64,000 bases of DNA from positions 32,981,648 through 33,045,647 of the forward strand of contig NC_092673.1 in NCBI RefSeq assembly GCF_964355755.1, given 5' to 3'. The notes under the pieces were generated by a model that was not told the DNA's origin, searched no databases, and worked only from the letters and a program-made list of their open reading frames with translations. Shown in pieces: positions 15,060 to 61,053 of this stretch. Position 1 is the first letter of the stretch; each line of letters starts with the position of its first letter. A program made the position numbers and the translations under genes. The DNA comes from Antedon mediterranea (Eukaryota > Animalia > Echinodermata).

Positions 15060-17010
15060 TTAAATATCGTAACATTTTTTCATATCTTCTTTTGCTTCTT
15101 CCATTGTAATATCCTTCCATCCGTCTGGAATATCAGCCTCCTTAGCGTTGTAGTATTCAGCAAGTTCAGTATTGTATGTTGCCATAAACCATTTCCAAAA
15201 CTTCTGTGACTCGCCTTCAAGTGGTTCAATTTTCCACGATGCGTAGTAGTCATTCACATTCCTATAATCTCTGTAATTGACCCATTCGTTGTTTGTGTTC
15301 TTGTTACAAAAGCGGCCATTAGCCAATAAAGAAGTTGTGCATACATCTGTGGTGAGTTTTCTTGACTCATTCCACCTATATGCGGCGACCCCTTTCGGTC
15401 TGTGACAATCTGAACGATGGTGATCATGTGGGCCATGAAGGTCGCATAGTGCTTCACAAAATGGACACGCCTCCTGGCAAGCTAGTAGATCAGCTGTAAA
15501 GAAATTACAACAGGATGTGCGTATTTCACTGAAAATGCTCGTATCATAAGCATTAATAATTGTATCTTTGATGACGTTTAGTTCCAATAACAGTTTATCG
15601 CTAAGGATTTTCAAATCCAAATCTCTGTCCTCATCAAAAAACATAATGTCTGTTTTGACGCATAACTCTTTATCAATGTGTCCAAGAAAGGTTGGCCACC
15701 ATGATTTCATTGTAATAGAACCTTTCGCACTTAATGCACGGATAGCTTCTTTGAATCCATTTAATATGTCCTGAACTTTATTATGATATATATCTTGTAT
15801 TGCAGAACTACTAGTGTTATCATCCTTCTGGAAACACATTTTCTCTATTTGTTCAGAAGTGAACATTTTGATGCTCAGTATTGGATTAGATAAGTACTTC
15901 TCAAATGAATGGAAATCGCCCGTTTCTGCTATTTCAACCAGCATCCATGCATGGACAGACATCTTACTTGAAAAACCTTTGTTGGCTTTCAGTTTATCAA
16001 TTACTCCACGTTTGCATTTTTCTGGAAGAGCTGTTTTAATAGCACTTGCAATCCATCGAGATGTAGCCGACGCCACTTTATCAGTTACGTGCACATCATT
16101 ACATTCTTCTTTAAACATTTGCCACAATCCTTCTTTTTGAGACTCCATGTATATTCTCGGATCATTTTCCCGCTTGTATTGTTTCTGCATATTTGTTAAG
16201 ATGGGTATGAGTTTTACCTTGTAATTGCACACGGCTAGTCGAATCTTTCCTTTCACGGTAACGTGAACGTTCTCATCTAATTCTATCTTTCCCAAATCAC
16301 TAAGCAAATCACTAAGAAGTTCACATCCCAGTTGTATAGTGTAACTTCTTCCATTCTGTTCAAGCTTTGTGATTTTTGTTTTAAATTTATTTACAATTAT
16401 TTCTTTAGCACTATTAGCCTTATTTACATATGCTTTGTTGCTACTGAACACTGTTTTACCAATTGATTTAAAAGCTTGTTTTATTGGTGTTTGTTTAACC
16501 GGATGATTGATATCTAAAGACAAATCAGTTTTAAGTACGTCAGTATTAAACGTTTCAGACTGCAATATACTTTTAACTTCTGATTGATCGTTTCCTAAGA
16601 AACATTTGACGGTGACCAATTGAAATGACATGTGTACATCTACGTGTCTATCATCTCCTGGTATGTCTGAAACCCACGTTTTCCAGTTTGTAGCAAATTC
16701 TCGTTCGAGTTGCCAATTAGGTAGTTGTTGATTTCGATACTTGTCGGCAAGTTTGTTAGCTTTTTGATAAATATCTTTATTGTACATTTTAATGTCAGCA
16801 TCAATGCTAGCTCTTTTGATAATTTTATTTCCAGAAGAAATAAATGAGTTCCTTATTTCAGCTTTTATTTCCTCACAAAGACCACTGACTTGAATGTCCA
16901 TTTTACCTTCCCATTGACATGTTTTTGTTTCTTTTGTAAAATAAATTGCCATGCTTGATTTAAATCTGTGGATGTCTTCTTCTAATTCCTGTAAATAACT
17001 GTCCAAGATA
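15060..17010 (-). CDS. VLIG/GVIN1-like GTPase paralogue A, last exon, 3' part (helical region and C-terminal Cys/His motif)
   Basis: An open frame of about 650 aa is colinear with the C-terminal 40% of the 1568-aa ORF, e.g. FFTADLLACQE.CPFC.ALCDL.G.HDHHR.DCHRP and FWKWFMATYNTELAEYYNAKEADIP. Confidence 0.92.
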
Positions 17011-17039
17011 TACACAGCAAAATTTGAAATTCTAAGCAA

Positions 17040-18575
17040 GAAAAAAAAATCTTGTTTTAAGAAAAAATTCTTAAAATAAGTATTTTTTTTCTTGTCAAGA
17101 TTTAAAATTACTTAAAACAAGAAATAATTTTCTAGAAAAGACACATTTTCTTAAATTAAGTTTTGCAATATTCTGGAAAATGCTTATTACAAGAAATATT
17201 TTACTTAAAATAAGAAGTCAATATCATTCTCTTCTTATTAAGAATAGTTTTGCTTAAAACACGATTTGAAAATACTTAATTTGAAAAGTATTTTACTTAA
17301 AATAAGAAATCTATATTTTATTTATCCCTATCAAGAATAATTTTTCTTAAATCAAGATTGATGAATTATAAAAATTACTTAAAACAATCATTATTTTTCT
17401 AGGTAAGACAAAGTTTCTTAAATTAGGTTTCGCAATAGTCTTGAAAATACTTGTTTTGAGAAATATTTTACTTAAAATAAGAAGTCAATTTCACACTACC
17501 CTTATCAAGATTATTTTTACTTGAATCAAGATTCGCAATATTCTTGAAAATGCTTATTACAAGAAATATTTTACTTAAAATAAGAAGTCAATATCATTCT
17601 CTTTTTATTAAGAATAGTTTTGCTTAAAACAAGATTTGAAAATACTTAATTTGAAAAGTATTTTACTTAAAATAAGAAATCAATATTATATTTATCCCTA
17701 TCAAGAATAATTTTTCTTAAATCAAGATTGATGAATTCTAAAAATTACTTAAAACAATAAATATTTTTCTAGGTAAGACAAAGTTTCTTAAATTAGGTTT
17801 CGCAATATTCTTAAAAATACTTATTTTGAGAAATGTTTTACTTAAAATAAGAAGTCAATATCATACTATCTTATCAAGACTATTTTTGCTTAAATTGAGA
17901 TTCGCAATATTTTTAAAAATACTTATTTTGAGAAATGTTTTACTTAAAATAAGAAGTCAATATCATACTATCTTATCAAGACTATTTTTACTTGAATCAA
18001 GATTCGCAATATTCTTAAAAATACTTATTTCGAGAAATGTTTTACTTAAAATAAGAAGTCAATATCATACTATCTTATCAAGACTATTTTTGCTTAAATT
18101 GAGATTCGCAATATTTTAAAAAATACTTATTTTGAAAAATGTTTTACTTAAAATAAGACGTCAATATCATACTATCCTATCAAGACTATTTTTGCTTGAA
18201 TTCAGATTCGCAATATTCTGATTTTGAGAAATGTTTTACTTAAAATAAGAAGTCAATATCATACTATCTTATCAAGACTATTTTTACTTGAATCAAGATT
18301 CGCAATATTCTTTAAAATACTTATTTTGAGAAATGTTTTACTTAAAATAAGAAGTCAATATCATACTATCTTATCAAGACTATTTTTGCTTAAATTGAGA
18401 TTCGCAATATTTTTAAAAATACTTATTTTGAGAAATGGTTTACTTAAGATAAGAAGTCAATATCATACTATATCCTATCAAGACTATTTTTGCTTGAATT
18501 GAAGTCAATTCTATTTTAATATTCTTAAAAATACTTATTTTGAGAAATGTTTTACTTAAAATAGATTGTCAATAT
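17040..18575. repeat. Left subterminal array: 102-bp units (about 17810-18575) plus a higher-order duplication of about 370 bp
   Basis: The spurious ORFs at 17826 and 18224 show a 34-codon period. tgcttattacaagaaatattttacttaaaataagaagtc occurs at 17181 and 17551. CTT-N5-AAG motifs are dense. Confidence 0.9.
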
Positions 18576-19530
18576 CCTTATATTCACACAACGGTAGAGC
18601 AGTTAGCACTTCAGTTTCAACTGATGAAAGAATCTGGGTAATCAAACTGTTTGTGCTTTGAATAATCGATTGCACTGCAACCTAAAGAAAATAATATTGA
18701 TTTAATATTTTTTATATTCAAGTTTTAATATGTTTAAAAACTAAGTTGTGCTTTAGTTGGGGAGCTATATGCAGCCTAACAAAAAAAATGTTATTTGTAA
18801 CAATGAAATTGGTCACAAAAAAATGCAACATAAACTTAGAGTGTATAATGCCTAGGCCTAGTACCCAAGTCCTATAGTTACTATAGCTAATAGTCCTGTA
18901 TAATAACAGTACCAGCAAGGCCTAGGAAATAGACGTATTTCTCTAATAAAAAATAGTTTAAAATGCATAATTGTTGTAATTTTAAAGCAAAATGGCTTAC
19001 CTGTGGAATCTTGTTTCTCTCCTTTAATTTTAGTAGAAAGAAATCAGCATTTTTTATACTATTATCTGCTTGTTCATCCTCTAGTTAGTAGGCCTTCTTG
19101 CTGAGCATCAACACGATAATTAATATTAAACAATCATTAACAGTATAACAATACTAGAATTATCACTACTAACTACTATCGTCAGTTGATAAATCATCTC
19201 CGTTATAATAGTTTTTTTCTTCATTAACTTCGTCAGTCTCCTAGTCTAGGCCTAGTTCTACTTCATCCTCAATTGGCATCCTCGTTTTCTCCAGGCATAC
19301 TTATATACTGATGTTTCCATCGTCAACTGCAGGAGGTTGCCGATTGTTATACTCGTCCTTAAAATGGCGTCTTATGACATGCTTGTAAAACGAATTGTAA
19401 ATTCCAAAGCTTGCCGGGCAGCGAACCACCAATTCCACATGTTACTCGAAAATTCGGAGTATTTCCATGAATTGAATTATAATGCCTTAGCAAATAGGGT
19501 AGCAAATACTGTACCTACTTCAGTTTACTG
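18575..19530 (-). pseudogene. 5' remnant of EnSpm-type transposase (C2H2 zinc fingers and following helices)
   Basis: Hand translation gives LLRHYNSIHGNTPNFRVTCGIGG/CPASFGIYNSFYKHVIRRH (one frameshift), then NADFFLLKLKERNKIPQ, an intron at 18682-19000 (GTAAG..TTTAG), and VAVQSIIQSTNSLITQILSS. It is truncated at the left array and has no catalytic domain. Confidence 0.65.
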
Positions 19531-19895
19531 GCACCAACTTATCGCTTTTTTTCGGACTGCAACAAACATGTGTCATTATTATTGTCTGTCGTATTACTGT
19601 TGGTCCAGACGTTTTATAGATTTGCTTTAACCACCATGGAGGTTTATACCTCCATGCTTTAACGTTGAGCAGTATAATGACCTTATACATTCTGGGTAAA
19701 AGGCCAGCGATAAATTTTTGGTTATAGTTGAAAAACAACACTGTGTGTGGTCGATGACCTAGCTCCCGGCGGGATCATGGCCAACGGTTTTTTAAAGTAA
19801 TCATTCAAAATCTAGAGTTTGTAAGTAAAAGACACCTTTCATCGCAATTTATATATTAAATGCTTCAATAGGCCTAGTAAGATTAGTCTAATATA

Positions 19896-22067
19896 ATGTC
19901 GAAGGAAGACGCTTTGTTGAAGATCCGAGAAATAGATGAAGAAGTGGCCAACATTTTAACAGGTTCGTAGGCCTAATAATTATATTTTAATCTGCCAGCA
20001 GTCTAGGCCTAGCCTCCCTAGGCTCCTTCCTAGTTAGTAATACTGTAGGCCTGGAACTAGTAGGTCTAGGCTAGCCTACTATGCCTGTACTGACGGACAG
20101 GTGTATAGGTTTAGCTTAGCATTTTAGTTCAGACATTGACAGAAGGGACAAATATTGTCGGACCTATTTCAGCTAGGTATAAGGAAGGCCTAATAATACT
20201 TAATAGATAATACAATTATAATGTAACAGTTATTTTGTAATGTAGCCATGAAATATCTACGAAGGATTATACTGTATTATTTATATACACATATTCCAAT
20301 GAGAAATATAATGACATTTAAAAACACTTGAAGTGTTTTTAAATGTCATTATATTTCTCATTTCTCTTTATATTTAATTAATTGTACACACTAAGTAATT
20401 CCCGAAGTGATCACATCAATATTGAAACTTTATGTTTTTAACTCTAAATTTAAAAAAAACATACTAAAAAAACAAACAAAAAACATACGTACTGCATAAC
20501 TAAAATTGTTATATTAAATTTCTTTTTAAAAAACTGTGTTATTTACAATATCTTAAATTATTTGTTAGGTAATTGAAGAAGTTCGAAGGATACTAATTAT
20601 TACTAGGCAAAGAGGAATGAAATACAAAAGAAAGCTTTTTAAAAAAGTGCTTAGCAAATTTTTCCAAAGAAGAGAATAATATAGTTTATTTTGGTATTTT
20701 AAAGAGAAACACCAGTCCTCCATCTGGTAAGTACAGTGTATGTTTTTGTACTTTTATCTATTCATAAATAGTTTTATAATGGACCAATGGTAGTGAGGAA
20801 AATACGTGTACATATTGTGTACGTATTTTTAACAGCTTGGTTCGACTCAAGCTAGTGTCATGCACTCCTCCCTTTGACAACTAAAATTAAATAAATGACT
20901 TATGAATATTAATTTTTGACATATTAATGCTCTCCTGGCCAGCCCACCCTTTCCCCTTCCTTTTACATTGACCACCTACAAAACTGTAGGCTACATTATT
21001 AAAAATTTGAGCTACAGTATATCAAGTTTATGTCCATACATTATTCCACTCATTTAAATAAATTTATATAATATAATGTTTTCAATTTGTTATTTTTGGT
21101 TAGGTTCAAAGATAACCCATATGTTGTCAAATCTGTCAAACATATTTGTTGGGAAAAACTCATCAAAAAAAGTCTGCCGACCTTGAAGGTATTTAGTGTT
21201 TTTAAAAATTTAAAATACAAGTAACATTATGTACATTAAAAAAAAATATCTTAAAGTGTTTTTTTAAAATCAAATTTATCTTAGCTTAAAATTCGAGGTA
21301 TATACTATGTTTACAATAATTTATTAAAATCAAACAATTAAACAAAATTTACATTTAATTGTATGATTGTTATTATAAACATTGATACAGAATAAAAACA
21401 TCAATCAGGATTGAGCACCGTTTTGCGTATTGTCTTCCTAAATAGTAATATTAAAAATAAATTTAGACCCTAATAATTTAACTAAAAATAATAGATACAG
21501 CCAGGCCTGTCTTTGGGATCGGTATAAACAGGGCAAAGTTTGTGATTAAAAAGTTCAAATGCATATTCCACCCACCCTTATGTCTTATAATGTAAAATTA
21601 TTCTTACCACCGTTCTAATATTGCGTCATGTTTTTGTGTTTACCGCCCCAGATATAGGATTCTAAAACCACACCGTACCCAATTAGTTGATGATGTTACA
21701 CATATTTTAAATACAGTAATAACTAAAACTATATTAATCTCTTTTCATTTTTAGGAACATGAATAAAGATCCAGAATCCTGGTCTTCACGCCGATCAGGT
21801 AATATGCCGGTATTGCTTTTGGACACAGAAATGGCCTACATTAAAGTTTAGCAAACAATTCTAACTACAAAGAAAGCAAAATTAGATGAGGCTCTAGTTA
21901 CTCTCCTCTCCACTTTTTACCTTCTGGATTTCGATTATCCAAAATGAAAAGAAGTAGGCCTCACTATCCTTTAACAGTTAGTGATTTGTGATGAAAACAC
22001 ACCTGTACACTTGACAAAGGCTGTTGAATCATCATTAGTATACATTAATAAATTTAAAGACACCTAA
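19896..22067 (+). pseudogene. Decayed multi-exon accessory gene (ORF2/TnpA-equivalent, SAMD3-like C-terminus) of the EnSpm element
   Basis: It starts MSKEDALLKIREIDEEVANILT. AG/GT-bounded exon remnants lie near 20570-20726, 21104-21188 and 21756-22067. The last reads DEALVTLLSTFYLLDFDYPK*KEVGLTIL*QLV, matching the FYxFxxxYP motif of animal EnSpm ORF2. Confidence 0.6.
20298..20362. repeat. Perfect hairpin with 32-bp arms and 1-nt loop
   Basis: aatgagaaatataatgacatttaaaaacactt g aagtgtttttaaatgtcattatatttctcatt. Confidence 0.95.
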
Positions 22068-22359
22068 TAGTTTAAAGCCCAGGTGCGGGAGAAGAATTTT
22101 ACGAAATTTGTATTTTACCATTTTAATGTTTTTAAGTTTTCTTTTGATGGCATTTAATATTAATAAAAACAAGTTTGTTTTAAAGAAGTTGTATATATTA
22201 TTGTATCTAATGTCATGTAAATTGTAGTTCTTAATGAAAATAACAGTATTGTTAATATTATGTTTTATAACATTCTTGAATTTATTTGTTTAAGTAAAAT
22301 ATTACTTAAAATGAGTATTCATTTATCGTTCTTAAAATAAATTTTTAATGATTTATATT

Positions 22360-23957
22360 TTATAGAATTCTTGTTTCAAGCAATTTTTTTCCCAATATAA
22401 GTAAGAATTTACGAATTTTAATTTGATAGAATTCTTGTTTCAAGCAATACTTTTCTTAAAATAAGTAAACATTTACTGGTTTTTATTTGATAGACTTCTT
22501 GTTTACTTATTTTAAAAAAAGTTTTGCTTGAAACAAGAATTCTACAAAAAAAAATCGGAATATTCTTACTTATTTTAAGAAATATATTGCTTGAAACAAG
22601 AAAACTAAAAATATAAATCGGAATATTCTTACTTATTTTAAGAAAAATATTGCTTGAAACAAGAATTCTACAAATAAAAATCGGAATATTCTTACTTATT
22701 TTAAGAAATATATTGCTTGAAACAAGAATTCAAAAAATACAAATCAAAATATTCTTACTTATTTTAAGAAAAATATTGCTTGAAACAAGAATTCAAAAAA
22801 TACAAATCGGAATATTCTTACTTATTTTAAGAAAAATATTGCTTGAAACAAGATTTCAAAAAATACAAATCGGAATATTCTTACTTATTTTAAGAAATAT
22901 ATTGCTTGAAACAAGAATATTAAAATTAAAAATCGAAATATTCTTACTTATTTTAAGAAAAATATTGCTTAAAACAAGAATTCTAAAAAATACAAATCGG
23001 AATATTCTTACTTATTTTAAGAAAAATATTGCTTGAAACAAGAATTCTACAAATAAAAATCGGAATATTCTTACTTATTTTAAGAAATATTTTGCTTGAA
23101 ACAAGAATTCAAAAAATACAAATCGGAATATTCTTACTTATTTTAAGAAAAATATTGCTTGAAACAAGAATTCAAAAAATACAAATCGGAATATTCTTAC
23201 TTATTTTAAGAAAAATATTGCTTGAAACAAGAATTCAAAAAATACAAATCGGAATATTCTTACTTATTTTAAGAAATATATTGCTTGAAACAAGAATATT
23301 AAAATTAAAAATCGGAATATTCTTACTTATTTTAAGAAAAATATTGCTTAAAACAAGAATTCTAAAAAATACAAATCGGAATATTCTTACTTATTTTAAG
23401 AAAAATATTGCTTGAAACAAGAATTCTACAAATAAAAATCGGAATATTCTTACTTATTTTAAGAAATATTTTGCTTGAAACAAGAATTCAAAAAATACAA
23501 ATCGGAATATTCTTACTTATTTTAAGAAATATATTGCTTGAAACAAGAATTCTATAAAATACAAATCGGAATATTCTTACTTATTTTAAGAAATATATTG
23601 CTTGAAACAAGAATTCAAAAAAATACAAATCGGAATATTCTTACTTATTTTAAGAAAAATATTGCTTGAAACAAGAATTCTATTTTAAAAAATCGATAAA
23701 TTGTTACTTATTTTAAGGCAGATACTGCTTAAAACAAGACTTAAAAAAGCAATTAAATTCTTGGTAAGAATATTGTTCTTAAAGTATTATTTCTTGGTAA
23801 GAATAATTTTCTTGATAAGAATTTGTGTGATTCTTGTTAAGAATTTTACGATTCTTGGTAAGCCAAAAAGTATTGAAATACGGACAAGTCAAAATTTACT
23901 TGTTTCAAGAAATATTTTGCTTGAAACAAGTTTTTTTTTTCTTAAAACAAGAATCAG
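22360..23957. repeat. Right subterminal array: 63-bp units with 379-bp higher-order repeat
   Basis: A 21-codon period is visible, and ORFs 22650-23036 and 23029-23415 are nearly identical (offset 379). Units at about 22360-22500 are in the inverted orientation. Confidence 0.92.
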
Positions 23958-23969
23958 AATTTTGCTGTG

Positions 23970-26750
23970 TACTGTCCATCTTTCCTCATCTCTTCTGCTG
24001 TGAGTTTCTGACATTCAATTTGGAGTCCGTAGCTGTATTCCAGTGCGTTTCTTCTGAATGTACGGGCATGCTTCACATATTCTACATTCAAAGCGTTAAA
24101 AGCTTGAATCTCGATAGAATTTTTGAAACTGAATACAAAATGTTGACCTAATATTGCATTCCAAAGATCGCGTAGCAATTTTGGAAACTCAGCTATACGC
24201 TTAGGTTCGGAATATTCCATGAATTCAAAGATTTGTTTCTTTACTTGAAGAATGCATTGGCTGTAACCAGGATTAGGGGGCGCCATTGGTAGATCTCCTT
24301 GCCAAAGGCTGGAAATGTACATAATGTGTTTGTTTTCTTGAAAGTTAATGACATCAGAAAACGATCGATATTTTTCACTGCAATTCTCTTCGGCCGCAGC
24401 AATTTTTGTCATTTCATCCAATGTTTCTCGCATACGTCTTTTTTGTTTCGTATTCAAATCAGATGCTCTGACATCAGTGACATTTTGATGTACAAATAAG
24501 CAGCTGGGTTTAATATTAACATTATTGATTTTCATAAAAGCGTGGACAGCAATTTGAAGTGTGTCTTGCATGTCTGTTGGGTTTTCTCCCATAATATTTA
24601 TTATGGTAAGATCACCTAATCCAATCACTAGCGTGGCAAGTTCATTATCACGACTGGTGTCCTGTTGAATGCTGGTGAATTCAGGAGACCGCAAACCCTC
24701 AGTGTCAACCACAAGCATGTAGTCACATTGTGTCTCTTCTCTTAAACCTTTATCTAACGATACCAGTTGGGCGAATATACCTTTAGTACATCTTCCAGCA
24801 CTAACAGAGAATTGTAAACCAAACATAGCATTTAACATGGTTGATTTTCCGCTACTTTGAATGCCCAGTACAGATAACACAAACACTTTTTTATTACCAA
24901 CTTGGTATTTAAGAGAATTGAACACGGCTTCAATCCAAGTGAGAGGCACGTGGGTTGCATCACCATCCATCAGCTCAATAGGGTATCCATGTATTAACAT
25001 TTCAGCAGTAACTTCTGCTAAGTAATCACTGTCAGATATTGGTAATTTCAATGCTGATAACATTTCGTAATTCTGTCCAATTTCTCTAGTGAAATGTTCC
25101 AATCCTACAGATTCATGAGATAGTTGCTGTTCAAGTTCATCAAGTTTATATTTCATTGTTTCCAATGTTGGTTTAGATGTTTCTGGTTTGTCTTTGTTGT
25201 GGTCACATAATTCATTCCACTTTGCTATGTACTCTTCACGTATCGGCTGTAGCTTTTGAATGCTATATCTATCGGCCATTATCTTTACTAATCCAAAGAA
25301 ATATTTTCTTTCAATAGTCTTGTAGCTGAATGACTGTTTAAACAACATATACGTGCTTTGGCTGCGTTCCTTGCGTTCCCTGTGTAAATTTAATTGCAAA
25401 CTACGTAAGTCGTTTATCTCTTTCTTTACCTTTTCAACATACACCTCGATTTGCATATTTCCTTTTCCTAGTAGCCGACGCTGTTCTTTTTTCTTGTCTC
25501 CAATTTTCACTGTTATCATCTGCAAGGGCAGTTCCTTATGTTTCCCCTCTTTTTCGACGAGCTTAAGTAACATACCAACTGTCTTTTTTGCTTCTGAACA
25601 ATCAAATTCGTCAACGTGGAAATTTATTTTGTCTGCTACTTCAATGCACTCCTCGATACTCCTATCATGTAGGCCTACAATTTCCCGGTTACTTCCCTTG
25701 AAATTACATTTAAGCAGTTTCCAAATTTCTGCACTTATTTTCAGCTCGTTTTTGTTGAATGACTTAATACATTGTACCTCTTTGTTCACATCTCGAAAAT
25801 TTTCTTGAATTTCACGTAAGACTTTTTTTAAAACTTCTCCAGCAGAGCCGTCCAAGATAAAAATGACGTGACCCATTTGTCTGTACAATGATTTAAGTAA
25901 CGTAGCGTCATGGTCATTAAAGTTAGCACATGAAACAAATGCAATAGTGACCAGTGATATCTCTGATAAAAATTGTGTCTGAAGTTGGAAATCCGATGCA
26001 TTTCCTCGTAGGTTTATGAAAGCTATTGCTTCTGAAACAGTACCATTCTGCGTTGGAATGTACCACGCTATTTCTAATAACCCATTTGATAATTTTCGTT
26101 CTAAATTACCACCTTTGCATCCATAATTAAAGAAAGTATCATGTTTCTGCTCATTAATGACACAGTTGACAATTTTTGATTTGGATATTTTAGGTCTTCC
26201 TAATCGCAAAGCAGAAACAATCGGTAACTTTTCTACCACCATTGACCGTTCACAAGACGAACCTGATATTGTTTTCCAATTTTTTGTTATTGTGCTCATT
26301 CCCCAGACAATCAGTTTCCATTGTTTATCCTGTACGTTCGTCACTGGGACCAGTAATGGTATAGCTAACTGACATAGCGACAATTTTTCAATCAAAATTT
26401 GTGTTAAAAAATTGTCACAACACAACAAAATGGCCACCAGTGCGTCTAATGGACTCACGTGACCGTTTTGTTTACCTTGATTTGGGCTTTCGTCTTGTAG
26501 AACAGAAAGAAGTGAACAAGATTGAATTTCTTCTAAATCAAATGATCTTCCTTCATAGTTACATATTATAAGATTTTGTAAGATATACCAAGGTATTTTG
26601 CTTGGGTCGTCATTGAGTTCATCTGGTGAAATCACATGTTTGGAGACTACCTCTTTACGAGTTAGTTTTCTGGGATAATATTTCTGTAGTCCTAGATGTT
26701 CAACCATCTGCTTATGTATGTTAATTTTATCTTCTCTTTCATCTAAAGAA
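23970..26750 (-). CDS. VLIG/GVIN1-like GTPase paralogue A, last exon, 5' part (URGCP-like domain and VLIG-type G domain)
   Basis: G1 GIQSSGKS, G2 GRCT, G3 DTEG, then DNELAT and FVHQNV. The acceptor tttcag lies at 26751-26752 (phase 2). The frame runs into the transposon TIR and stops (YTAKF*). Confidence 0.93.
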
Positions 26751-26845: not shown

Positions 26846-26909
26846 TCTACATTCTTCTGCAAAGGTACTTCTGTCGTCCTCAGTAAAGGTATGATTACGG
26901 GTTTAAAAT
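26846..26909 (-). CDS. Paralogue A exon 5 (64-nt linker)
   Basis: ttttaag|ATTTT...GTAGA|gtaagt; phase 1 to phase 2, reads (D)FKPVIIPLLRTTEVPLQKNV(D) and joins exon 4 to the GTPase exon in frame. Confidence 0.75.
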
Positions 26910-28229
26910 CTTAAAATAGAAAAACACTTTGGATTTGTTTTATGTATCTATCGTTATCAATTCAAAAATTGTTTTTTATCTATTTGGAGATTGTAAAAAG
27001 GTTTAATTCAGATCCACATCCGGCACCGTCGCTTGAGTTTGAAACATAAATGAACATAAATACATTAGAGAACTAGAATTGAAAGAGTTCCTAATAACAT
27101 AAAGTATTATTTTTTGTTGTGTATTGTCATATTTTATGGCCAAAAAATTAAAAGATAAAGGTTTGTATAGACTTTTATGATTTAAAACACAGCAAGTTAT
27201 AAGCGTTTTCTGAAAGAAAATTAGGACATATTTTTAAAGTGAAAAATTCAGAAATAGCTTAAATTTGGTCTGTTTGACATATTATAACATGACATTTGGG
27301 AAGGAGGCGAGACAGTGTGGTTGTACACTTTACAAAGTTTAAACTATACAGTGCAAATCCAAATTAGATCATAAAATAGTAAATAAAATTTGCATCGGCC
27401 GATGTATCATTGCTATTTTGAACCACCTGAACATAAGGTTCGGCCAATTAATATTTTGTTTGCCTCATCCTCAATCATGGTCCCTCCACTGAAATCTCGC
27501 ATCGGCTCAATCCATTAATTCCAAGTTGGAACTTTGATAGGATTTTTACTTAGGCCTAATTTCCGGTCAATTAAAAGGCCATATTATTCTCAAAACTGTT
27601 TCTTAACTCACAAAGGTTGGGGAGTGGTGGTGGACGAGCCTCTCAGTGTGTATTCCAGATTAGTTTTTTAAATAATAACCGTCATTAACTTTTTTTTATA
27701 GTTTCAGCATTAATATATTCCTAAATGCTTGAAGTTTCAATGTGACGGGTTCTCTTCTTTAAAAAAAAAAGATGCAACAAAGGCCGCAGAGACAACATCA
27801 GGCCTTAGAACATCCCAGCTGCAAATGACTCGGTTGCCAAAAATATCGCTTTTCAATGTATTGTTTTATTTTTAACTTTTTGGAATTCCGACGCTTGCCT
27901 GTACCACCTCACGTAAGATAGGTTGTAGCTAAGGATGGTTGCTTACGACGGTCGTTTTAGAGAGGTGATCGCGTAAAGAAACGCATTTGCACATTATTTA
28001 GACATAGATTTGTAAAATATATAACATTTTCTAAATTTGCTGTGATAGTAACTACATTAGCTGTCAAGCAATTTTCGTTACTACATTGACCGTTCTACAT
28101 TAGCTGGTGTTGATTTTGTATTAACTGCTTAAGCTGGAGGTTTCACTACATTAGCGGTGGATTGTTCTACGTTAACGGTTGCTTCAAGATTAGCTGGCAT
28201 TTTCTACATTGGCGGTGGTAACAAGTTGG

Positions 28230-29720
28230 TTCAACAACACCCTCTTTGATAAAGATGCAAAGTTTGAAAATTTAGCACAACATCTTTCTATGCAAGATGA
28301 GTGCAAAAATATTGAAGAATACTGGGGGGAAATGAAAACTGCAATTTATGACTGTGTTTGGTAAGAAGATCAAAAACAACCCAGATTGGTTTAAAGAAAA
28401 GTATGAAAAGTTCCTGCCTGTCATTGAGAAGAAACCTACAGCTCTGTTAGCTTACAAGACTACACGGCATAATCTTGCTCCTACGTTTAGCCAGGGCAGA
28501 TGTGCAATGAGTTGTGCGCCAGTGCATTAACAAGTACTGGGAAGAACTTAGTGCTCAGAGAAAACAAGATGCTGACACAGGGTACTTGAAGGGCATGTGT
28601 AGAAAGAAAACAGCACAATTTTAAGACCGAAATGGTAATCTTCAGGCAAGGCTGGTGGTATACCAACTGAAATTGTTAAAGCAGGTGGCCAGACTCGTAC
28701 ATCATCTGCATGAGATTATTAGTTTCTGTTGGTCTCTTTACAACGTCTGCTGCCTTTAGCTGCGAAAAGAATCTCAATGTGGTTTTTGCTCTGGAAGATA
28801 TACCATTGATATGATTTTCTCTATTAGGAAGCTGCAGGAAAAATGTGTATCGATCTGTTATCCATCAATCTCACTAAGGCGTTTGACCTTATTAATAGAG
28901 ACTGTCTATTTGAAATCCTAAGGAAAATTGGATGTCCACCTACTCCAATAAATATTATCCGATCCTTCCATGAAAGAATGCAACCTACTGTCAAGTACAA
29001 TTATGCAGTGTCTGACTCATTTGATGTCGAGAGAGGAACAAAACAGAACAGAACAGAAGATGTTCTTGACCCTCTACTCTTTGGGATTTACTTTGCAGTC
29101 GTCCTCCAAAGAGCTTTTTTACCATAATCATATGGAAGGAGTTTGATTGCATTGTAGATCTATTGGCAAGCTGTACACCCCGGCCAAACCAACTGGCCAA
29201 AACAATTTTTCTGGAAACTGTACTGGAAATTGTCTTACCTTGGTCCAGTTATAACTAATAGTAACTCTCTTGATTGCGAACTAAACATTCGAATCGGAAG
29301 ATCTTCTAGTAGTTTTAGTCAGTTGTCTGTACGTGTTTGAAAAAACAAAAATATTAGAGTGACTGTGTATGAAGATCAAATTGTATATGGCATGTGTCAT
29401 TAGTGTCCTTTTTGTATGGAGCTGAATCGTGAACAACCTATGCTAGACCAGAAAAGAAACTAAATGTCTTAAATATCAGATGGCAGGACAGGGTAACAAA
29501 CAACAGTATCCTTGATAGATGTGGCATTCCTTCGATGTTTACATTAATTCGACAGCGAAGACTACGATGGCTTGGTCATGTCAGAAGAATGGATGATACA
29601 AGAACTCCAAAGGTTATGCTGTGGGGTGAGCTAGCGAATTGCAAACGATCTTTTTTTGCGTTTCAAAGATGCATGTAAAAGAGACTTGAAGGCCATGGAT
29701 ATCAATGTTAACACCTGGGG
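28230..29720 (+). mobile_element. Decayed RTE-clade LINE
   Basis: Fragments KNNPDWF, INLTKAFDLINR..LFEILRKIGCP, DPLLFGIYF, YLG..I, RQRRLRWLGHVRRMDDTRTPK. Confidence 0.85.
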
Positions 29721-29721
29721 A

Positions 29722-29833
29722 AAAAGGCCATATAGATGGCTGCAGTCCTGTGTGCAAATTTGAGTTAATGTTTACCTACCGACCGACCGACCGACATAGT
29801 GAGCTATAGAGTCGCGTTACATACGACTAAAAA
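29722..29833 (+). mobile_element. Short Helentron/DINE-1-like non-autonomous copy
   Basis: aaggcc..., (CCGA)n, then catagtgagctatagagtcgcgttacatacgactaaaaa; same family as 38671-39462. Confidence 0.6.
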
Positions 29834-30164
29834 GGCTGATGACCGAAGGTCATAGAAAGACTGTATTCAGTCATTCCTCATTTTCTCCACATTATATTAT
29901 GACACGTTCGTTAATTTCCTTAAGGGTTAGAGTATCTTCAATTGACCGTCACAAAACAATTCGTATAAACAATTTAAAAAACTCATTATCTCTATATCGT
30001 GATATCAGATTTTTTTTTAATCCCAAAATATTGTATATATAAATATTGGTCATATACAGTGGTATCCCAGAATGTTTCAAAAAGTGGCTCCCTCAGACTC
30101 AAAATTGTACTGAGAGCGGGGAAAAGTATAAACATATAATATATATTAGCCCATAGACGCAATC

Positions 30165-31530
30165 ACTGGGTGGCAAATGGCCGGGTGGCAAATGGCCGGT
30201 GGTGGCAATTGGCCGGGTGCCAAATGGCCTAGGTGGCAAGTGGCCTGGGTGGCAACAGGCCGGGTGGCAAATGGCCGGTGGTGGCAATTGGCCGGGTGCC
30301 AAATGGCCTGGGTGGCAATTGGCCTGGTGGCAAATGGCCGGATGGCTAAGGCCCGGGTGGCTAAAGGCCGGGTGACAACATACCTAAGGTGGTAACAGGC
30401 CGGGTGGCATTATTTTTTTCTATTAGGAAAGAAACTATAGAGTCTGTGCATTTATGAATATTCATGATGTGACGGAAAAACTTAGAAATAGTTCCCACAC
30501 GATAATCGAAAAATGTTGATATCTTGTCGCGCTAGAACTGCTAATGCACGAAAAGAAACGTTACAAATGTTGCTTATGTTTGTAAAATAGTTATTTCTTG
30601 ACATCTAACAATGTACATATTAGAAATTAAATTAATTAATTAAAAACCACAAACCTCTAGAATTAGCAAGAACTGTTGTTACCTTCCTGTGGTCCACATT
30701 CAATGTTTAATATTATCTATATTTTATAATTTTCAAAAACGACCTGGTGGTAATTATCCTAGGTATTTTTATGGTATTTAATTTGTAATAAAAAGTTCAA
30801 TTTCAGGCAATATCATTCCCCAAAAAGAAAAATGTGTATGTTGCAGATGTAGATTTTCCGTTCAAACCACGCCTATTTTTAAAGTTAAAAAATATAAGCA
30901 ATCTCAACAATTAAATAAAATATATAGTAAGTATGGGCCTATAGCATATAATTATATATAGCTAGCCTACATTTTAAATATACAATACAATATAAAACGG
31001 GCCTAGGCCCTAAGATTAAGAAGCCATTTTACTTGTTAAATAAACTTTGTTGGTCCTAGTCCTAGACCTACCTACTCCTCGTCATAGGGTAGTTAAAACG
31101 AACACCAAATAATTAATAAAGGAATGTGCTGTTATATATTAAATTAAATGTTGTTAATATACCTGAAGTAGGGGAATATCACCATTGATCACCACACACA
31201 AACACCTCAACAAAAACATAGATATTATATCAGTGAAGAAGTAGGCCTCTCTTCACTGATATTATCGAAGACTAGCAAGATCTGCTTTCGCTCGCGAAAC
31301 GTGTGTCTTGCAAGTATGACGTCATGATCTCACGCATGCCTCGTGAATATTCACGCCCTCTATAGCGTATGCCTTAACCTATTAGGAAAAAATAATGCGG
31401 CCGGGTGGCAACAAGCCGGGTGGCAAAAGGCCGGGTGGCGAAATGGACGTGTGGCAAAAGACATTATGAGGAAAGGGCGGGTGGATAATAGGCCGAGTGG
31501 CAAAAGGCCAGGTGACAACGGACCAGAACC
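30165..31530. repeat. 15-bp GC-rich minisatellite (ggccgggtggcaaat) split by an insertion
   Basis: Arrays at 30165-30406 and 31398-31530 are in the same orientation. Confidence 0.85.
30407..31397. mobile_element. MITE of about 990 bp, Mutator-like (9-bp TSD)
   Basis: Imperfect TIR gcattattttt..cta(t/a)tagg..ctatagag. ggccgggtg lies on both flanks, but the flank is itself repetitive. Confidence 0.55.
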
Positions 31531-32329
31531 TAAAATATAAATGTGTAGCTTTCAGTTACAATACAAAAATTACCATAGAAAAACATTTATATAAACAGTT
31601 TGAAAAGGGGAAATTTTGCTATTTTCCCCAATCACACAGACAATAGTAATACTGTACGTTGTTCGTTGCAGATGGGTACCGGTATTTATTATAAAAATTG
31701 GTGAAAACTTTAGGCTAACAACACGTTCAAGTTTCTTTACTCACTTTTTTCTTCTTGTTTACTTGTAGTTGCCAACTCCGCAGAAGCTATTTTTGCTTGG
31801 TCCGATTCCTCTGTTTAATATAACCAATCATGTGTAAATTACATTTTACAATTCTCATTAAAAAAGAAAAAAAAAATCCGAGAAAAACACAATATAAAAA
31901 GTTTTGAATAAAGGGGGATGTTATGTTGATATAAGTTTGCAATACACCACGTGTATATTGTTCTGAAATGAACTGCTGATGTTTTTTAACGCAAACCTTC
32001 AAACAAAATGGATTTTGCTATTTGTTTCACAATCACGCACATAAAAGTAATACTGTACGTCCTTTGTTGCAGATGTTACTGTAAATGATTATAAAAGTGG
32101 GTGAAAAACTTTAGGCCAATCACACGTTAAAGAATCTCTAGTTACTCATTTTTCGTCGTATACCCCAATTCCTACGCTTAGATACCAATAATGAGTCAAA
32201 AGTAACAAGAAACTTTATTCGCGCCTTTACAAAATGGCGGCTAAAAAAATGGTTTCATTTATAAGCACATTTTAATTTTAGTTACAAATCCAATATCTGA
32301 AATAGAAATATTTAATTGAAATTTCTTAC

Positions 32330-32665
32330 CTATTTCCTTCAGTTTTCTCACAGCAGAACAAAAAAACTTGTAACGAATTGTAACATCAATAACCTCTTGT
32401 CGCTGGAATTCGTCTACTATTTTTGTTGCTAAAACTTTGTGCAACTTTCCACTTGCATACACTTCCCACAGGTCTTCCAATGCTTTAGTGTCATATGCAG
32501 CTACGCGTAACACTAAAGATCCAGATTCTGCTGAAATAGAGTCTACATTATGTTCACGCTTGAAAAAATCAGCAAGCTTATACACTCCAGCAAAAAATAA
32601 ATTGATAGGCGATGATGTCCAGTTTGAACTTTGATTTCTACTCAGATATCATATTAACTGCACAC
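32330..32665 (-). CDS. Paralogue A exon 4, TRADD-N-like module, with in-frame TGA at 32649-32651
   Basis: tttttaag|GTGTG...ATAG|gtaag, 336 nt, phase 1-1; motif SGSLVLRVAAYDTKALEDLWEVYASGKLHKVL. Confidence 0.72.
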
Positions 32666-33049
32666 CTTAAAAACAAAACGTGAAACTCTTATACTAAAGA
32701 TGTAAGAACATGAACAATAAAGATTAGGCTAAAAAAACTATTTAATAGTTTAATTATTCACGTTTTTTTTAAAATGTAAAACATATTTTATTTTATTTAA
32801 AAAAGATATTTAATTTTATATTCATACAGGATAAAGGATAATGATGGAGCACCTGCTTTACATATAATCTGGTTTATAGAAAATAAAAGGTTAAAAACAT
32901 GCATATACAATTCTTTAAAACTTGCTAAACGGTAAAATAACAAATAAAGTAAAAAATATATGTACATTTATGATAAAAGGAGTGAAAATACAAAAAAAGA
33001 ATAAAACACATTTGTAATTGGACAAGGTACAGGTAGTGACTTAAACAGA

Positions 33050-35420
33050 AGCAATAAAATAGTTTTAAAAGACAATTTCTGAAATGAATCCTCACATACA
33101 ATCATTATCAATATAACTGTTCTCAAAATGTTAAAATAGTGAGGATTTATATTGAAATATTTGTTTACAATTTGGATGATTCTTTAACTTCTTGCAGTAG
33201 ATCATTCCATACATGAGCGTCGGCGAATTTTAGTGAAGTCCTCATTATTTTTACATTAGGGTTAGGGGAAACCATAATTATTAAGAGTATTGGATTGCCT
33301 AGTATTATGTCCATGTTTATCGAACACAATTTCTATATCATTGCATAGTCTTGAAGGTGCAGTGCCAACATTTGAACATTAAACATGATATCGCATAATT
33401 TCTTCTTATATTTGAAATGTTTTCTAAGATAGATAATTCATTATATCACGTCACCACGCGTCGTTTTATAATTTAAATTGTTTGTAATTAGGTATAATGT
33501 TCTCATTAAATGTTTATTTTTAATTGTATAAAAACCTAGATAGTAAATTTAATTTTGCACAGACAGCTTTTGTTACCGTTGTAATATGGTGCTTCCAAGA
33601 TAGCTTGTCATCAATTTCGAGTCCTAAGTACCTAATATGTGAAACATTTTCAATACACTGATTTCCTAGAAGAGCTTCAAGTTTACAATATCGAGTATTG
33701 CATATCTATTTTTAATTTATATTATGTCCTTGTGGTATTCCGATTTCAATGTTTCTTTTTTCTGATATCTTATTATCATATTTAACAACCTGTTCTCTTT
33801 CACTAATGTAATTTTCAAAACATTTAATCTCATTATTCATAATACCGTAGTTTCGTACTTTTTACTCGGGTACCCGAGTTTAGGACTCTCTCATCCTCTC
33901 CATCTGGACACTATTGAGCCAACTTTCAAGTCCTACTAGTTTTTTACGCGGCTCTAAAACATGGCATGCATATACTAGGGTAATAGGTGAACAAAGCTAT
34001 AGAGATAAAATGCTCGTACTTCAACCGGATGCAGAATTATGACGTCATAAACATGGTACCAATCGAAAATAAAAAATTTATAAAGTACTCCTCCCTTATT
34101 CGTTGTAGTATTGAGCTGGGATTTGGCATGAATATACTACAGGAACATTTCCTCAAAGCTATAGAGCCGTATTTTTAGTCTCTACAGCTCACTATGTCGG
34201 TCGGTTGGTTGGTCGGTTGGTCGGTAAACACTAACTTGTATATGGCCTTGTCTTGACAGTTTCATCTAGCTAAGTCAATTTTTCACAGTATATTCCTTAT
34301 GGCCAGGAATCGATGTGATTATGTTTTCACGGTGCGTAATAAAAAATTACGCGGTGGGTCTACGCACGATTTAACGAAATCACGTTTGTAATCATATCTT
34401 CACCAGCATGAATCACATGCCAAATAAAATTTGGTACTCATAAATTTCAGGGCATAAATCATCATATGGCAATACAATTACGTGCGTAGCGCATGTAAAG
34501 CATGCGTACGCACGCTTAAAATTTTCAAAATTTTCAAAATTTATTTTTGATGAAATATATATATATATATTTTAAGCGTTTAAAAAATTGCCATAAGTGC
34601 GCAGATTTTGTTAAATGTTAATATGCACTCTTTTTGCCCGATTTCTGTTTTACAACCTTTCTTTAATAATATCATCATATTTTATTCACTTTTCAACTCG
34701 AAATTACGTTATATGAGCACGTCACGTGTATAGTATAGTCGATTGGTTGGTCGGTCGGTCTGTAAACATTAACTTGAGCACGCGACTGCAGCCATCTATA
34801 TGGCCTTGTTTAATTTCAAACCGGATGCAGCCATATGACGTCTCGAAGATGGTACCTTGGTGCCAGACAATTTTCGTCGTAATATAGCCGTGTTTGGTGA
34901 CATTTCAAAGGTCTTGACTTGGAAAATAAGAATATATACAGTAAAACCTATTTATGATATTGTGACGTCATTTCTGCTCCCGGAAATAGCAAAAAATAGC
35001 TGTATTTGGTAGCGAGGTTATTTATGTGTATGTGTCTTATGATGTCATTACAGCTTCTTTTGCTGTACCCCGAGTATCGCACATTCGTGCTTGTTCCAAT
35101 AGCAGAGCGTGATCAACAGTGTCGAAACATTTGGAGATATCTAAAAAACATGTTCCGATCATTTCATGCTCATTTAAAGATTCAATCCATTCATCGATCA
35201 CTCTATGCAAGTAAGTCATTGTTGAATGGTCTTTTCTAAATGCATATTGGTCTATATAGTTATTAAGTTGAATTTGTTTAAATAATCCGTTAATTGATTC
35301 TGTATGATTCTTTCCAGAAATTTAGAAACATGACAAACTACTGAAATTGGTCTATAGTTACTTTATATTTCGTTTGCCTTTCTGCTTTCTTCCAGTCCAT
35401 GAGCTGACATTGCTTCCCTA
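33050..35420 (-). mobile_element. Decayed CR1/L2-type LINE fragments interrupted by later insertions
   Basis: IGTCFLDISKCFDTVDHALL (35037-35219), YLGLEIDDKLSWKHHI near 33590-33640, and a 3' FADAHVWNDL remnant near 33200. Confidence 0.7.
33940..34812 (-). mobile_element. Helentron/DINE-1-like non-autonomous element(s)
   Basis: Reverse complement of the 38800-39330 core (e.g. tcataaatttcagggcataaatcatcatatggcaatacaattacgtgcgtagcgcatgt), (GGTC/GGTT)n tracts and a ggccttgtt end. Confidence 0.65.
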
Positions 35421-36015
35421 TAAATTACGGTTTATCAGGATTTTTTTTTTCTATCTATAATTTTTGGATGACTTGATTTTTGATGAATGACTATAATTAT
35501 TATGTGACATTTATTTATTTATTTTTAAAGGGGCGGGGGGGTGACGCTCGTGTTGCTTCTTCACTGTCGACAAATAAGGAGTATTATCAATGTGTTATTT
35601 TATAATAAACGATAGATATTTTAAGCCCGGCTGGCGATATTTTTACCTACAGGATAGTTGGGGCATTACAAGATATTAGCCAATCAGAATATTGTATAAT
35701 TTTAAGATAGCCGGCCTATTTCCTAAATAACGGAAATTCTAAATACTATTTTAAAAAACATCGAAGACCTTAGTCTTTACAAGTGTGCCACACAAATTGG
35801 CTTGCCGAAAACCGTTGATACGATTTATGTCCCCCTGTCCTAATTTATGCAATGACGTAACCCAAGATGTAATCTATATATACACGTCCTGATTGGTTAA
35901 TATTTTGTGATGGGCCCAACTAGTATGTAAATAAATTAAATCTTGCATCCGGGACTACCTTTAATTAACTGTAAAATGTACTAAAATACGAAGTACATAA
36001 ATATAAGCACAATAC

Positions 36016-36060
36016 CTTTACATTGACATGCTTCCAGATCAATGTCGGGTGATTGGCCAT
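36016..36060 (-). CDS. Paralogue A exon 3 (45-nt linker)
   Basis: tttttatcttccag|ATGGC...TAAAG|gtatt; phase 1-1, reads (D)GQSPDIDLEACQCK(G). Confidence 0.7.
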
Positions 36061-36308
36061 CTGGAAGATAAAAAAAAATCTATTTACATTTACTGAAAAA
36101 TGTGTGTATGCATCAATAACTAAATTTGAAACATAAATAATGAAAATTGGCTGCTATATCTCTGCATGTGTGAAAAAACCTAACCAATACAGTATATAAT
36201 AATAGTACAGTACTATTATTGCAATGCACATCATGGAACGGCAAAGACATGCATGATCGAACCACCAATATAATACCGTATTTAAAATATAAAAATATCA
36301 AAGCTCAC

Positions 36309-36641
36309 CCTTTTTCTGCAGTTCTCTTAAAGCAACTGTGTAATCGATTGGTTTAATGTCTGTCGTCCAATTATCTATAGCCATTTGCTGATGCTGTGGA
36401 TCAATGATGCCTACTAAACTCTTGAGAAGCTTTTTATTTGAATGTATATCCATTAATGTTAATAAGCCAGATTGATCATTTATGTTTAGATAAAGTAATA
36501 GTGAGGTTGGATACATGTTCAATGTACTCTTAATTAGATGAACAGATGGACATACATTTCTGAAATATTCTCCAAGGAGAGGATGTTTCCAGTTTAAGGA
36601 TGATTCTGGTGTTGGATCAAAAGTTATTGGAAGTTCTGAAT
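36309..36641 (-). CDS. Paralogue A exon 2, diverged TRADD-N-like module
   Basis: ttttatag|ATTCA...AAGG|gtgag, 333 nt, phase 1-1. Size, phase and pattern match exon 4 (SS.NW..P...F; SL.L....D...L..L......KL.K.L; ends ALRELQKKG vs AVRKLKEIG). Confidence 0.72.
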
Positions 36642-36825
36642 CTATAAAAGAGAAAAACACTAAAATTACAAAGTAAATAATGATGATAATAATGATGTTT
36701 GATGATAATTAATCATATTTTGAAAAGAAATACTAAAGACAAAATGGAACAAAACTAGTATTTTTTTTAATGAAAGCATTATGCTTCCTTTTAATATCGT
36801 AAATAATACAATGTGCATACATTAC

Positions 36826-37351
36826 CCCTATCAAGTAGTAGATTTTTTGCACGTTGGTTAAGACGAAGTGCAAAGTTCTCAATTTTACGTGGTTCATCCG
36901 CTAATTCTCCGATACTCTCTAGTTTGAAAACTACAATCCAAATGTTTCGGAAGTGAAACTTTCTCAGATTGTAGTAAGCGATAACTTGTGATAACCTCTC
37001 TTTCTGAATTTCTTGTAAGGCTTTAAATAGCCTTCTCCGGTATGGTGACAATGGTTGTATATCAGTATTATGAACTCTGTTTGTCTTCATATACTCTAGT
37101 ACAAGATCTTCAGCAGCCTTAATTTGTGTCAGTTTCACAATGTCTAACAACAGGTTGACATTAGTAGGTAGGATGTAACCTTTTAGCTCAAGTTTATTGA
37201 ACAAATCATGTGCTATTAAACCATGCTCGTCGAAGTCTCCGAAAGGTAGGTGATCGCATAGGCAGAATTTGAGCAAACGATACTGATCCCCCTTGTAGTG
37301 TTCACCAAGATTAGCTTTTAAGTCCCTGAAGTTCATATTCAAATTTGCCAT
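36826..37351 (-). CDS. Paralogue A first coding exon: tandem death-effector-domain-like folds
   Basis: FRDLKANLGEHY...LLKFCLCDHL...DLFNKLELKGYILPTNVNLLLDIV, then LSPYRRRLFKALQEI...VFKLESIGEL. Donor G|gtaat at 36825; 5' acceptor tttttgcag at 37372-37373. Confidence 0.75.
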
Positions 37352-55247: not shown

Positions 55248-55919
55248 CTTATCTTTCTAAAAAATTGAAGTAAACAAAACGAATGAATAAAATGTTTGAT
55301 GTTTGAGGTATTTATTAAATAAGCCTAATAAGGACTTTTTTAGATTAAATAATGCCCACATATCTTACTGTCGAGCTGTAGGTATACCACTCCTATAAAA
55401 ATCACAAATCACCAAAACCATCAGCTCATTGGCATTATTGCGACAGATCTTGTTTTTAGGGAAAGTGGGAAGTGCATGCATATAAAGAGTGAATCACGGT
55501 GGGCATTTTGTTGTGAATTAACTTGAAGGGTGCAGTGTCCAGGTACTATGAGCTTACCAAAACGTCACTGTGTGGTACCTTGTAACGTAATGCCACTTGA
55601 GCTAGAAAATGACAAAATACAATTTTTTTTAACAGATTTATGTATGTAAAGTAAGGTACTGTATGATGTAATGTAATTGGAACATAATGGTCCGCGAAAC
55701 CATTTTCAACTCAAGTGCTTTATGGAAACAGGTTCATTAAGATGGTTTTTGCTGTATTTCAACAACGTGTGCCATTAAGCCTAGGAGGTACAAATATTTG
55801 CCATTTGTTATAGCTAAAGCACATATTACAATACGATGCTATAATAATTGTTTGCCAAGAAAAACAAAATTCTGTGACAGGACACAATCGTAAATTCTAT
55901 GAAATTAAAGCAGAATTAA

Positions 55920-60755: not shown

Positions 60756-61053
60756 ACTTTTCCCAGGTTAGTCACGATTTTTTTTACAGAGTTCCTTCAG
60801 ACAACCATGGAGGAAATACAACCGACTGGCTCCCAGGTCAACGTCGTTTTGAAAAAAGAAAAACAGTGTTTGTTTTGTTTTCCAGTGAGGCTGTTTGTTT
60901 AGATTTGTTTTATGAAAATAAAAATAATTGTAAATGTAAATAAGAAGAGAAGACTTTTTTGTTTTTATTAATATTATTAATTTTAATTCATCTACTGTAC
61001 ACTTAATAATAAAAAAGTAGCTGATTTAAACAAAACTATATATTTATTGTAAT

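What the first reader, a model, noticed from the sequence alone, without database searches (positions are those of the whole stretch)
17011..23972. 7-kb EnSpm transposon in the GTPase exon can be removed in frame by excision or by splicing
Seen: precise excision (element plus one TA) gives DGQ-Y-ILDSY, aligning without gaps to the paralogue. Both halves (about 927 and 650 codons) have no stops. The element's left end supplies a strong minus-strand acceptor (atttttttttcttgcttAG, 17032-17033), and the target site contains a GT (ca|GTacac, 23971-23972). Both are phase 2, so splicing 23972..17032 gives DGQ-ISNFAV-YILD, a full-length protein plus 6 aa. Known: maize dSpm insertions can be spliced out of exons. 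Inferred: either a recent knockout or polymorphic allele, or a transposon becoming an intron. The element's internal genes are decayed while the host frame is intact, which fits either recent trans-mobilisation or tolerated intronisation. The donor is weak.
Basis: partly seen in the sequence, partly recalled or inferred. Interest (0 to 1): 0.8.

Follow-up and report, generated by a model that had tools for sequence, protein, structure and literature searches.

The report
Young transposon splits sea-lily immune gene
A 7-kb mobile DNA element with many near-identical copies sits inside the large coding exon of a GTPase gene of a likely sea-lily genome and most likely cuts that gene copy short; the in-frame splice that would repair it exists on paper but needs a very poor splice signal, and no RNA was available to test it.

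Summary
The anatomy is real. A 6,957-bp element (17013-23969; 12-bp inverted ends, TA on both sides) splits a VLIG/URGCP-type GTPase exon. Removing it plus one TA gives 1,597 codons without a stop; the proposed splice gives the same plus 6 residues.

The intron reading is weak. The donor matches 3 of 9 consensus positions, against 5-7 for six host donors. The same in-frame solution arises at 53 of 310 TA sites in this gene. The element's ends are high-copy and match this copy at 215 of 215 bases, so the insertion is young and intact halves need no splicing. A modelled upstream exon also holds a TGA. Read-through stops five codons into the element.

Three DNA-like runs of one sample show the insertion junction and no empty-site contig. 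No RNA holder was listed, so splicing is untested. EnSpm fits the ends, but no transposase match passed.

Verdict: probably a recent knockout of one copy in a large gene family; leaky dSpm-like splicing is not excluded. The scan noted similar exon insertions on other DNA, none on this sequence.

The parts
17013..23969 (.). Non-autonomous DNA transposon, 5'-CAC..GTG-3' ends, 12-bp perfect terminal inverted repeat
   Evidence: a high-depth contig ends exactly at 23969 and another starts exactly at 17013
17011..17012 (.). TA target duplication, left copy
23970..23971 (.). TA target duplication, right copy
17096..18576 (.). Left subterminal tandem arrays (about 102-bp unit)
22352..23739 (.). Right subterminal arrays (63-bp unit, 19.6 copies, plus inverted copies)
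18570..19520 (-). Decayed coding remnant with a C2H2-like motif and a strong donor at 19000; likely the N-terminal exons of a transposase (resemblance recalled, not confirmed)
   Evidence: only hit is a zinc-finger motif in an unrelated protein; none
20565..22060 (+). Decayed exons of a likely second element gene (resemblance to SAMD3-like partner of animal CACTA recalled, not confirmed)
   Evidence: no hit
23972..26750 (-). 5' part of the large exon of VLIG/URGCP GTPase gene A; holds the whole URGCP and GTPase domains
15060..17012 (-). 3' part of the same exon, 650 codons, stop-free
23954..23956 (-). In-frame TGA met five codons after the insertion point on read-through
23971..23972 (-). Proposed donor GT (3 of 9 consensus matches, no -1G, no +5G)
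17032..17033 (-). Proposed acceptor AG, 19 bases inside the element's left end
22482..22487 (-). First AATAAA inside the element on the gene's strand (6 in all)
26846..37351 (-). Six modelled upstream exons of gene A (DED-like, TRADD-N-like and short exons) with consistent phases
   Evidence: model is inferred
32649..32651 (-). In-frame TGA in modelled exon 4 if the acceptor at 32666 is used
50541..55256 (-). Paralogue B, uninterrupted 1,571-codon exon, used as the empty-site reference

Best explanation
A non-autonomous cut-and-paste transposon with CAC..GTG ends and a TA duplication sits in the large exon of a VLIG-type GTPase gene, and it likely inserted recently and likely disables this one copy of a multi-copy family. 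Shown: the element, its ends, the duplication, the high depth and identity of the ends, the read-through stop. Inferred: a transposase from another copy moved it; transcripts read into the element, stop five codons in and end at an AATAAA about 1.5 kb inside or use the element's own stronger splice sites; the product, if any, keeps the GTPase domain and lacks the last 650 residues. The halves are intact because little time has passed.
For: Right end: one 215-base contig ends at 23969 with 0 differences at depth 906 against 5-5.9 for the gene path (run X3); 890 against about 12-21 in X2. Left end: 3,416 against 32.7 (X1) and 20,574 against 171 (X4), and contigs join the same end to other flanks. 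0 of 215 puts divergence under about 1.4%; at 0.1-1% neutral divergence the 3' half stays stop-free with probability 0.90-0.35, or 0.79-0.09 with an assumed indel rate. Donor 3 of 9 against 5-7 of 9 for 6 of 6 host donors, all with -1G or +5G; 101 of 145 GTs in the same exon score higher. In-frame fit at 53 of 310 TA sites of gene A and 59 of 292 of gene B. Two 8-of-9 donors and 6 AATAAA inside the element on the gene's strand. 132 of 269 contigs laid in X1 are 90-95% alike, so close paralogues are many. Possible second lesion in exon 4.
Against: The acceptor is the best of 379 in the element and lies at the very end; the flipped orientation has no strong in-frame acceptor (0 of 310). No empty-site contig in 3 of 3 runs of the source-like sample, which a simple heterozygote would be expected to show. 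Length varies at this site in the family (104 of 118 homologues differ within 5 residues, mostly one shared vertebrate deletion), so 6 extra residues might be tolerated. Both halves show dN/dS of 0.27 and 0.36 against paralogue B, though this reflects the long time before insertion. At the upper bound of 1.4% divergence an intact 3' half has probability only 0.23, or 0.04 with indels. Contig depth is a rough guide to copy number, and only the ends were laid. The exon 4 stop depends on an inferred model and can be bypassed.
Confidence: 0.76

Rival explanations
1. Leaky dSpm-like rescue: a minority of transcripts are spliced from the GT at the target site (or a nearby cryptic donor) to the element's terminal acceptor and give full-length protein plus 6 residues.
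For: Join is in frame and stop-free; strong terminal acceptor with 19 retained bases that are open in all three frames; indel-tolerant site; introners that carry the 3' site and take the 5' site from the duplication are described (PMC9860276 passages).
Against: Donor weaker than every host donor and than 101 of 145 exon GTs; 7-kb span with stronger donors and poly(A) signals; site lies 9 residues into a confidently predicted helix in paralogue B; possible stop in exon 4.
Confidence: 0.13
2. Established new intron: the element is fixed and efficiently spliced, and gene A is fully functional.
For: Both halves intact; no empty allele seen in one sample.
Against: Ends identical to a high-copy family; no sign of donor improvement; ten times longer than the longest introner family median of 654 nt.
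Confidence: 0.03
3. Function is restored in some cells by transposase excision at the DNA level.
For: Perfect ends and a high-copy family suggest recent mobility; removal of element plus one TA restores the frame.
Against: 4 of 5 cut variants shift the frame, including the one keeping both TA; no empty-site contig; no active transposase was located.
Confidence: 0.04
4. The truncated protein (GTPase domain without the last 650 residues) is made and kept as a useful variant.
For: URGCP and GTPase domains lie wholly before the insertion; stop and AATAAA follow within 1.5 kb.
Against: No evidence of expression; insertion looks young; possible upstream stop.
Confidence: 0.03
5. Assembly artefact.
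For: The left-junction contigs reach only 21-25 bases into the element, short of the tool's 31-base rule, and the runs may be the window's own source; no listed piece bridges the right junction.
Against: Exact target duplication and terminal repeats; the junction contig has 0 differences in 3 of 3 runs.
Confidence: 0.01

Closest known systems
Maize dSpm insertions spliced from exons (A2 gene, Menssen et al. 1990 EMBO J 9:3051, title seen only in reference lists; bz-m13 recalled)
   Same: Defective CACTA-like element in an exon; a splice site near the element's end; a few extra codons would remain.
   Different: By its title the maize element carries sites at its termini and splicing was shown; here the donor is borrowed from the target site, is very weak, and no RNA exists. 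Animal host, 2-bp TA duplication, 7 kb.
Introners that carry the 3' site and co-opt the 5' site from the target duplication (Gozashti et al. 2022, PMC9860276; 2025, PMC12130899; passages read)
   Same: Same geometry; some families add codons; one echinoderm (purple sea urchin) has introners.
   Different: Introner families have median lengths of 30-654 nt and are defined by many spliced copies; this is one 6,957-bp copy with no shown splicing.
EnSpm/CACTA within the CMCT clade (Kojima 2025, PMC12730594, passages read)
   Same: 5'-CAC..GTG-3' ends; duplication within the clade's 2-5 bp range; long subterminal repeats.
   Different: That paper gives 3-bp duplications for fungal EnSpm and TA for the separate ESTA lineage; here TA, and no transposase core was found to place it.
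Interferon-induced very large GTPase 1-like (VLIG/GVIN, URGCP) proteins of crinoids
   Same: 69% identical to an Antedon mediterranea protein, 51-57% to four Anneissia japonica proteins; Pfam PF25683 and PF25496.
   Different: Gene A is interrupted, and its modelled DED-like and TRADD-N-like upstream exons were not matched by the five crinoid proteins tested.

Membership tests
EnSpm/CACTA (CMC) DNA transposon | Short terminal inverted repeats, 5'-CAC..GTG-3' | tested here: met
   12-bp perfect repeat; criterion
EnSpm/CACTA (CMC) DNA transposon | 2-3 bp target duplication | tested here: met
   TA on both sides; 2-5 bp for the CMCT clade; 2 bp in animal EnSpm is recalled
EnSpm/CACTA (CMC) DNA transposon | Subterminal repeat arrays at both ends (recalled feature) | tested here: met
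EnSpm/CACTA (CMC) DNA transposon | DDE transposase with C(2)C and H(3-4)H motifs | tested here: inconclusive
   No core found in this copy; remnants gave no passing hit; an autonomous partner could not be sought (no genome)
Non-autonomous, recently active family | Many near-identical copies at different sites | tested here: met
   End contigs about 40-180 times the depth of the gene path with 0 differences; other flanks; ends only
Introner / transposon-derived intron | GT..AG sites that remove the element in frame | tested here: met
   formally met but common by construction
Introner / transposon-derived intron | Donor strong enough for U1 recognition, like host donors | tested here: not met
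   3 of 9 against 5-7 of 9 by simple consensus count; no trained splice model was available
Introner / transposon-derived intron | Splicing shown in RNA | not testable with these tools
   No RNA holder listed
Introner / transposon-derived intron | Several copies forming introns in different genes | not testable with these tools
   No genome held; no other copy in the window
VLIG/URGCP very large GTPase | URGCP and URGCP-like GTPase domains above curated cut-offs | tested here: met
   E 8e-71 and 1e-119; crinoid VLIG best hits

The most novel reading that the evidence does not exclude
A young, high-copy animal CACTA-like family carries a built-in acceptor 19 bases from one end, so that any insertion in this orientation at a G-TA target can be spliced out in frame with 6 extra residues: a 7-kb introner in a crinoid, caught here creating an intron in an immune GTPase gene.
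Probability: 0.1. Interest if true: 0.65.

Novelty: new member of a known kind. Interest (0 to 1): 0.25.

Why it matters
On the best reading it is an ordinary but clear snapshot of gene loss in an expanded immune GTPase family by an active transposon. If splicing were shown, it would extend the maize dSpm and introner route of intron gain to a multi-kilobase element in an animal, with a rule (G before TA, one orientation) testable across about a hundred copies in one genome.

Tried and rejected
Whole genome: none held, so no copy census or autonomous partner. Sequencing runs: no RNA holder listed; 4 of 5 listed runs hold the stretch and all come from one sample. The fifth (X5, other sample, RNA only a guess) covers the element end at three other flanks and not this flank; lack of cover is no evidence either way. 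Zygosity from depth: inconclusive; one unrelated contig is 1.3-2.5 times the gene path. Element proteins: Pfam six-frame 0 of 6, word searches no hit, HMMER one zinc-finger motif hit; the protein atlas gave no answer. End motif in metagenome contigs: 0 matches. The two maize papers were not held. Literature searches for animal EnSpm with 2-bp duplications gave 1, 0 and 1 papers, so that point stays recalled. Rejected: dN/dS against paralogue B as a test of current function, since it averages over time before the insertion; 'decayed interior, intact host' as support for intronisation; Tc1/mariner or IS3EU as the class (ends differ; Tc1 ends recalled).

Full report
OBSERVATION. The insertion spans 17013-23969 (6,957 bp), has a perfect 12-bp terminal inverted repeat beginning CACAG, and has TA on both sides. 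Long tandem arrays fill both subterminal regions. It interrupts a minus-strand reading frame whose parts are stop-free. Of five cut variants only element plus one TA keeps the frame, giving 1,597 codons that align without a gap at the site to paralogue B at 50541-55256 (672 of 918 identical before, 368 of 636 after). The proposed splice is also correct on paper: 1,603 codons with six extra residues.

HOST GENE. The 5' part holds complete URGCP and URGCP-like GTPase domains. The best homologues are crinoid very large GTPases (69% Antedon mediterranea, 51-57% Anneissia japonica), so the genome is probably a crinoid (inference). Six upstream exons can be modelled from an ATG at 37351 with consistent phases; they include weak DED (E 7e-4) and TRADD-N (E 8e-3) matches, both below the curated cut-offs. 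With the best-looking acceptor, modelled exon 4 has an in-frame TGA at 32649-32651. Skipping the exon or using a GAG acceptor at 32585 avoids it. This is a possible second lesion, not a proven one. In sequencing contigs 132 of 269 pieces laid on the 5' part in run X1 are only 90-95% alike, with summed depth up to about 25 times the gene path, so close paralogues are numerous.

AGE AND FAMILY. Four runs of one sample hold the gene; they may be the window's source. In X3 one 215-base contig ends exactly at 23969, differs from this copy at 0 positions and has depth 906 against 5-5.9 for the gene path; X2 gives 890 against about 12-21. At the left end the values are 3,416 against 32.7 and 20,574 against 171, and several contigs join the same end to other flanks, also in a second sample. 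Depth is a rough guide, but tens to over a hundred copies of the ends are indicated. In X2 the 31-mers with A, TA and ATA before the end have depths 800, 600 and 130, which suggests a TA preference; laying favours longer matches, so this is biased. Zero differences in 215 bases bound divergence at about 1.4%. At 0.1-1% neutral divergence the 3' half stays free of stops with probability 0.90-0.35 (0.79-0.09 with an assumed indel rate); at 1.4% it is 0.23 (0.04). Intact halves therefore do not require splicing. The dN/dS of 0.27 and 0.36 against paralogue B describes the time before insertion.

EMPTY SITE. In 3 of 3 runs of the sample one contig runs from the 3' part across the left junction 21-25 bases into the element with 0 differences. 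No contig at 88% or more leaves at 17012 towards the 5' part. This falls short of the tool's 31-base bridging rule, and contigs cannot show absence. It fits a homozygous insertion or a gene copy present on one haplotype only; depth does not decide. On the 5' side a near copy with three or more differences is laid only from 23972 onward; its continuation was not among the 24 of 102 loose ends shown.

SPLICE TEST. The acceptor is good: best pyrimidine tract of 379 minus-strand AGs in the element. The donor is poor: 3 of 9 matches to the recalled consensus, no -1G and no +5G, while 6 of 6 modelled host donors score 5-7 and have one or both; 101 of 145 GTs in the same exon score higher. U1 complementarity is a major determinant of donor choice (PMC6280755, passages). 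The frame match is built in: the element leaves 19 bases and the host loses one G, so any G-TA target works. In-silico insertion at every TA gave this solution at 53 of 310 sites in gene A and 59 of 292 in gene B, and some in-frame GT..AG at 179 of 310 and 173 of 292; the flipped orientation gave 39 of 310 and 35 of 292, none with a strong acceptor. A read-through transcript meets TGA five codons in, six AATAAA and two 8-of-9 donors inside the element. In a model of paralogue B the site lies 9 residues into a helix with pLDDT 96-98, but 104 of 118 homologues differ in length within 5 residues, mostly by one shared vertebrate deletion. Tolerance of six residues is therefore open. No RNA holder was listed, so splicing is untested.

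CLASS OF ELEMENT. Ends and duplication length fit EnSpm/CMCT as described in PMC12730594 (passages). No search confirmed it. It is best called an EnSpm-like non-autonomous element.

COMPARISON. The closest cases are the maize dSpm in A2 (title only, from reference lists in PMC4219821 and PMC8195511; text not held) and introners that take the donor from the duplication (PMC9860276, PMC12130899 and PMC11282704, passages). The review notes that exon insertions usually inactivate the gene unless usable signals exist. No supplements were read.

VERDICT. A real, recent insertion that most likely disables one copy of an expanded GTPase family (0.76). Leaky in-frame splicing 0.13, established intron 0.03, other readings 0.08. 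Interest 0.25; the introner reading has probability 0.1 and would deserve 0.65.

Noticed in passing
window 32649-32651 (-): In-frame TGA near the start of modelled exon 4 (TRADD-N-like); could be a second disabling change, or bypassed by skipping the 336-nt exon.
   Followed up: partly
window 26846-37351 (-): Modelled upstream exons would join a DED-like and a TRADD-N-like domain to a VLIG GTPase; both Pfam matches are below cut-off and the five crinoid homologues tested do not match these exons.
   Followed up: partly
window 4750-5514: 765-bp foldback element with TATGG..CCATA ends and a 6-bp duplication, matching the IS3EU description in PMC12730594.
   Followed up: partly
window 23972-24056: A near copy of the 5' flank (differences at 24010, 24023, 24047) at single-copy-like depth is laid only from 23972; allele or paralogue unresolved, and no partner appears on the 3' side.
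   Followed up: partly
window about 20298-20362: Near-perfect hairpin with arms of about 32 bases between the element's two oppositely oriented coding remnants (read by eye).
   Followed up: no
window 58191-59192 and 61048-61979: 89% identical duplication upstream of paralogue B with 42-45-bp repeats in a short minus-strand ORF.
   Followed up: no
window 30168-31520: Two arrays of a 15-16-bp GC-rich unit flank about 1 kb with a short inverted repeat; probably another mobile element.
   Followed up: no
window 480-1815 and about 28200-29700: Decayed pieces that recall LINE endonuclease/reverse transcriptase (recalled resemblance; the two ORFs scanned gave no Pfam match).
   Followed up: no
window 47534-48369: 836-bp stretch with inverted ends and a 7-bp flanking duplication.
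   Followed up: no
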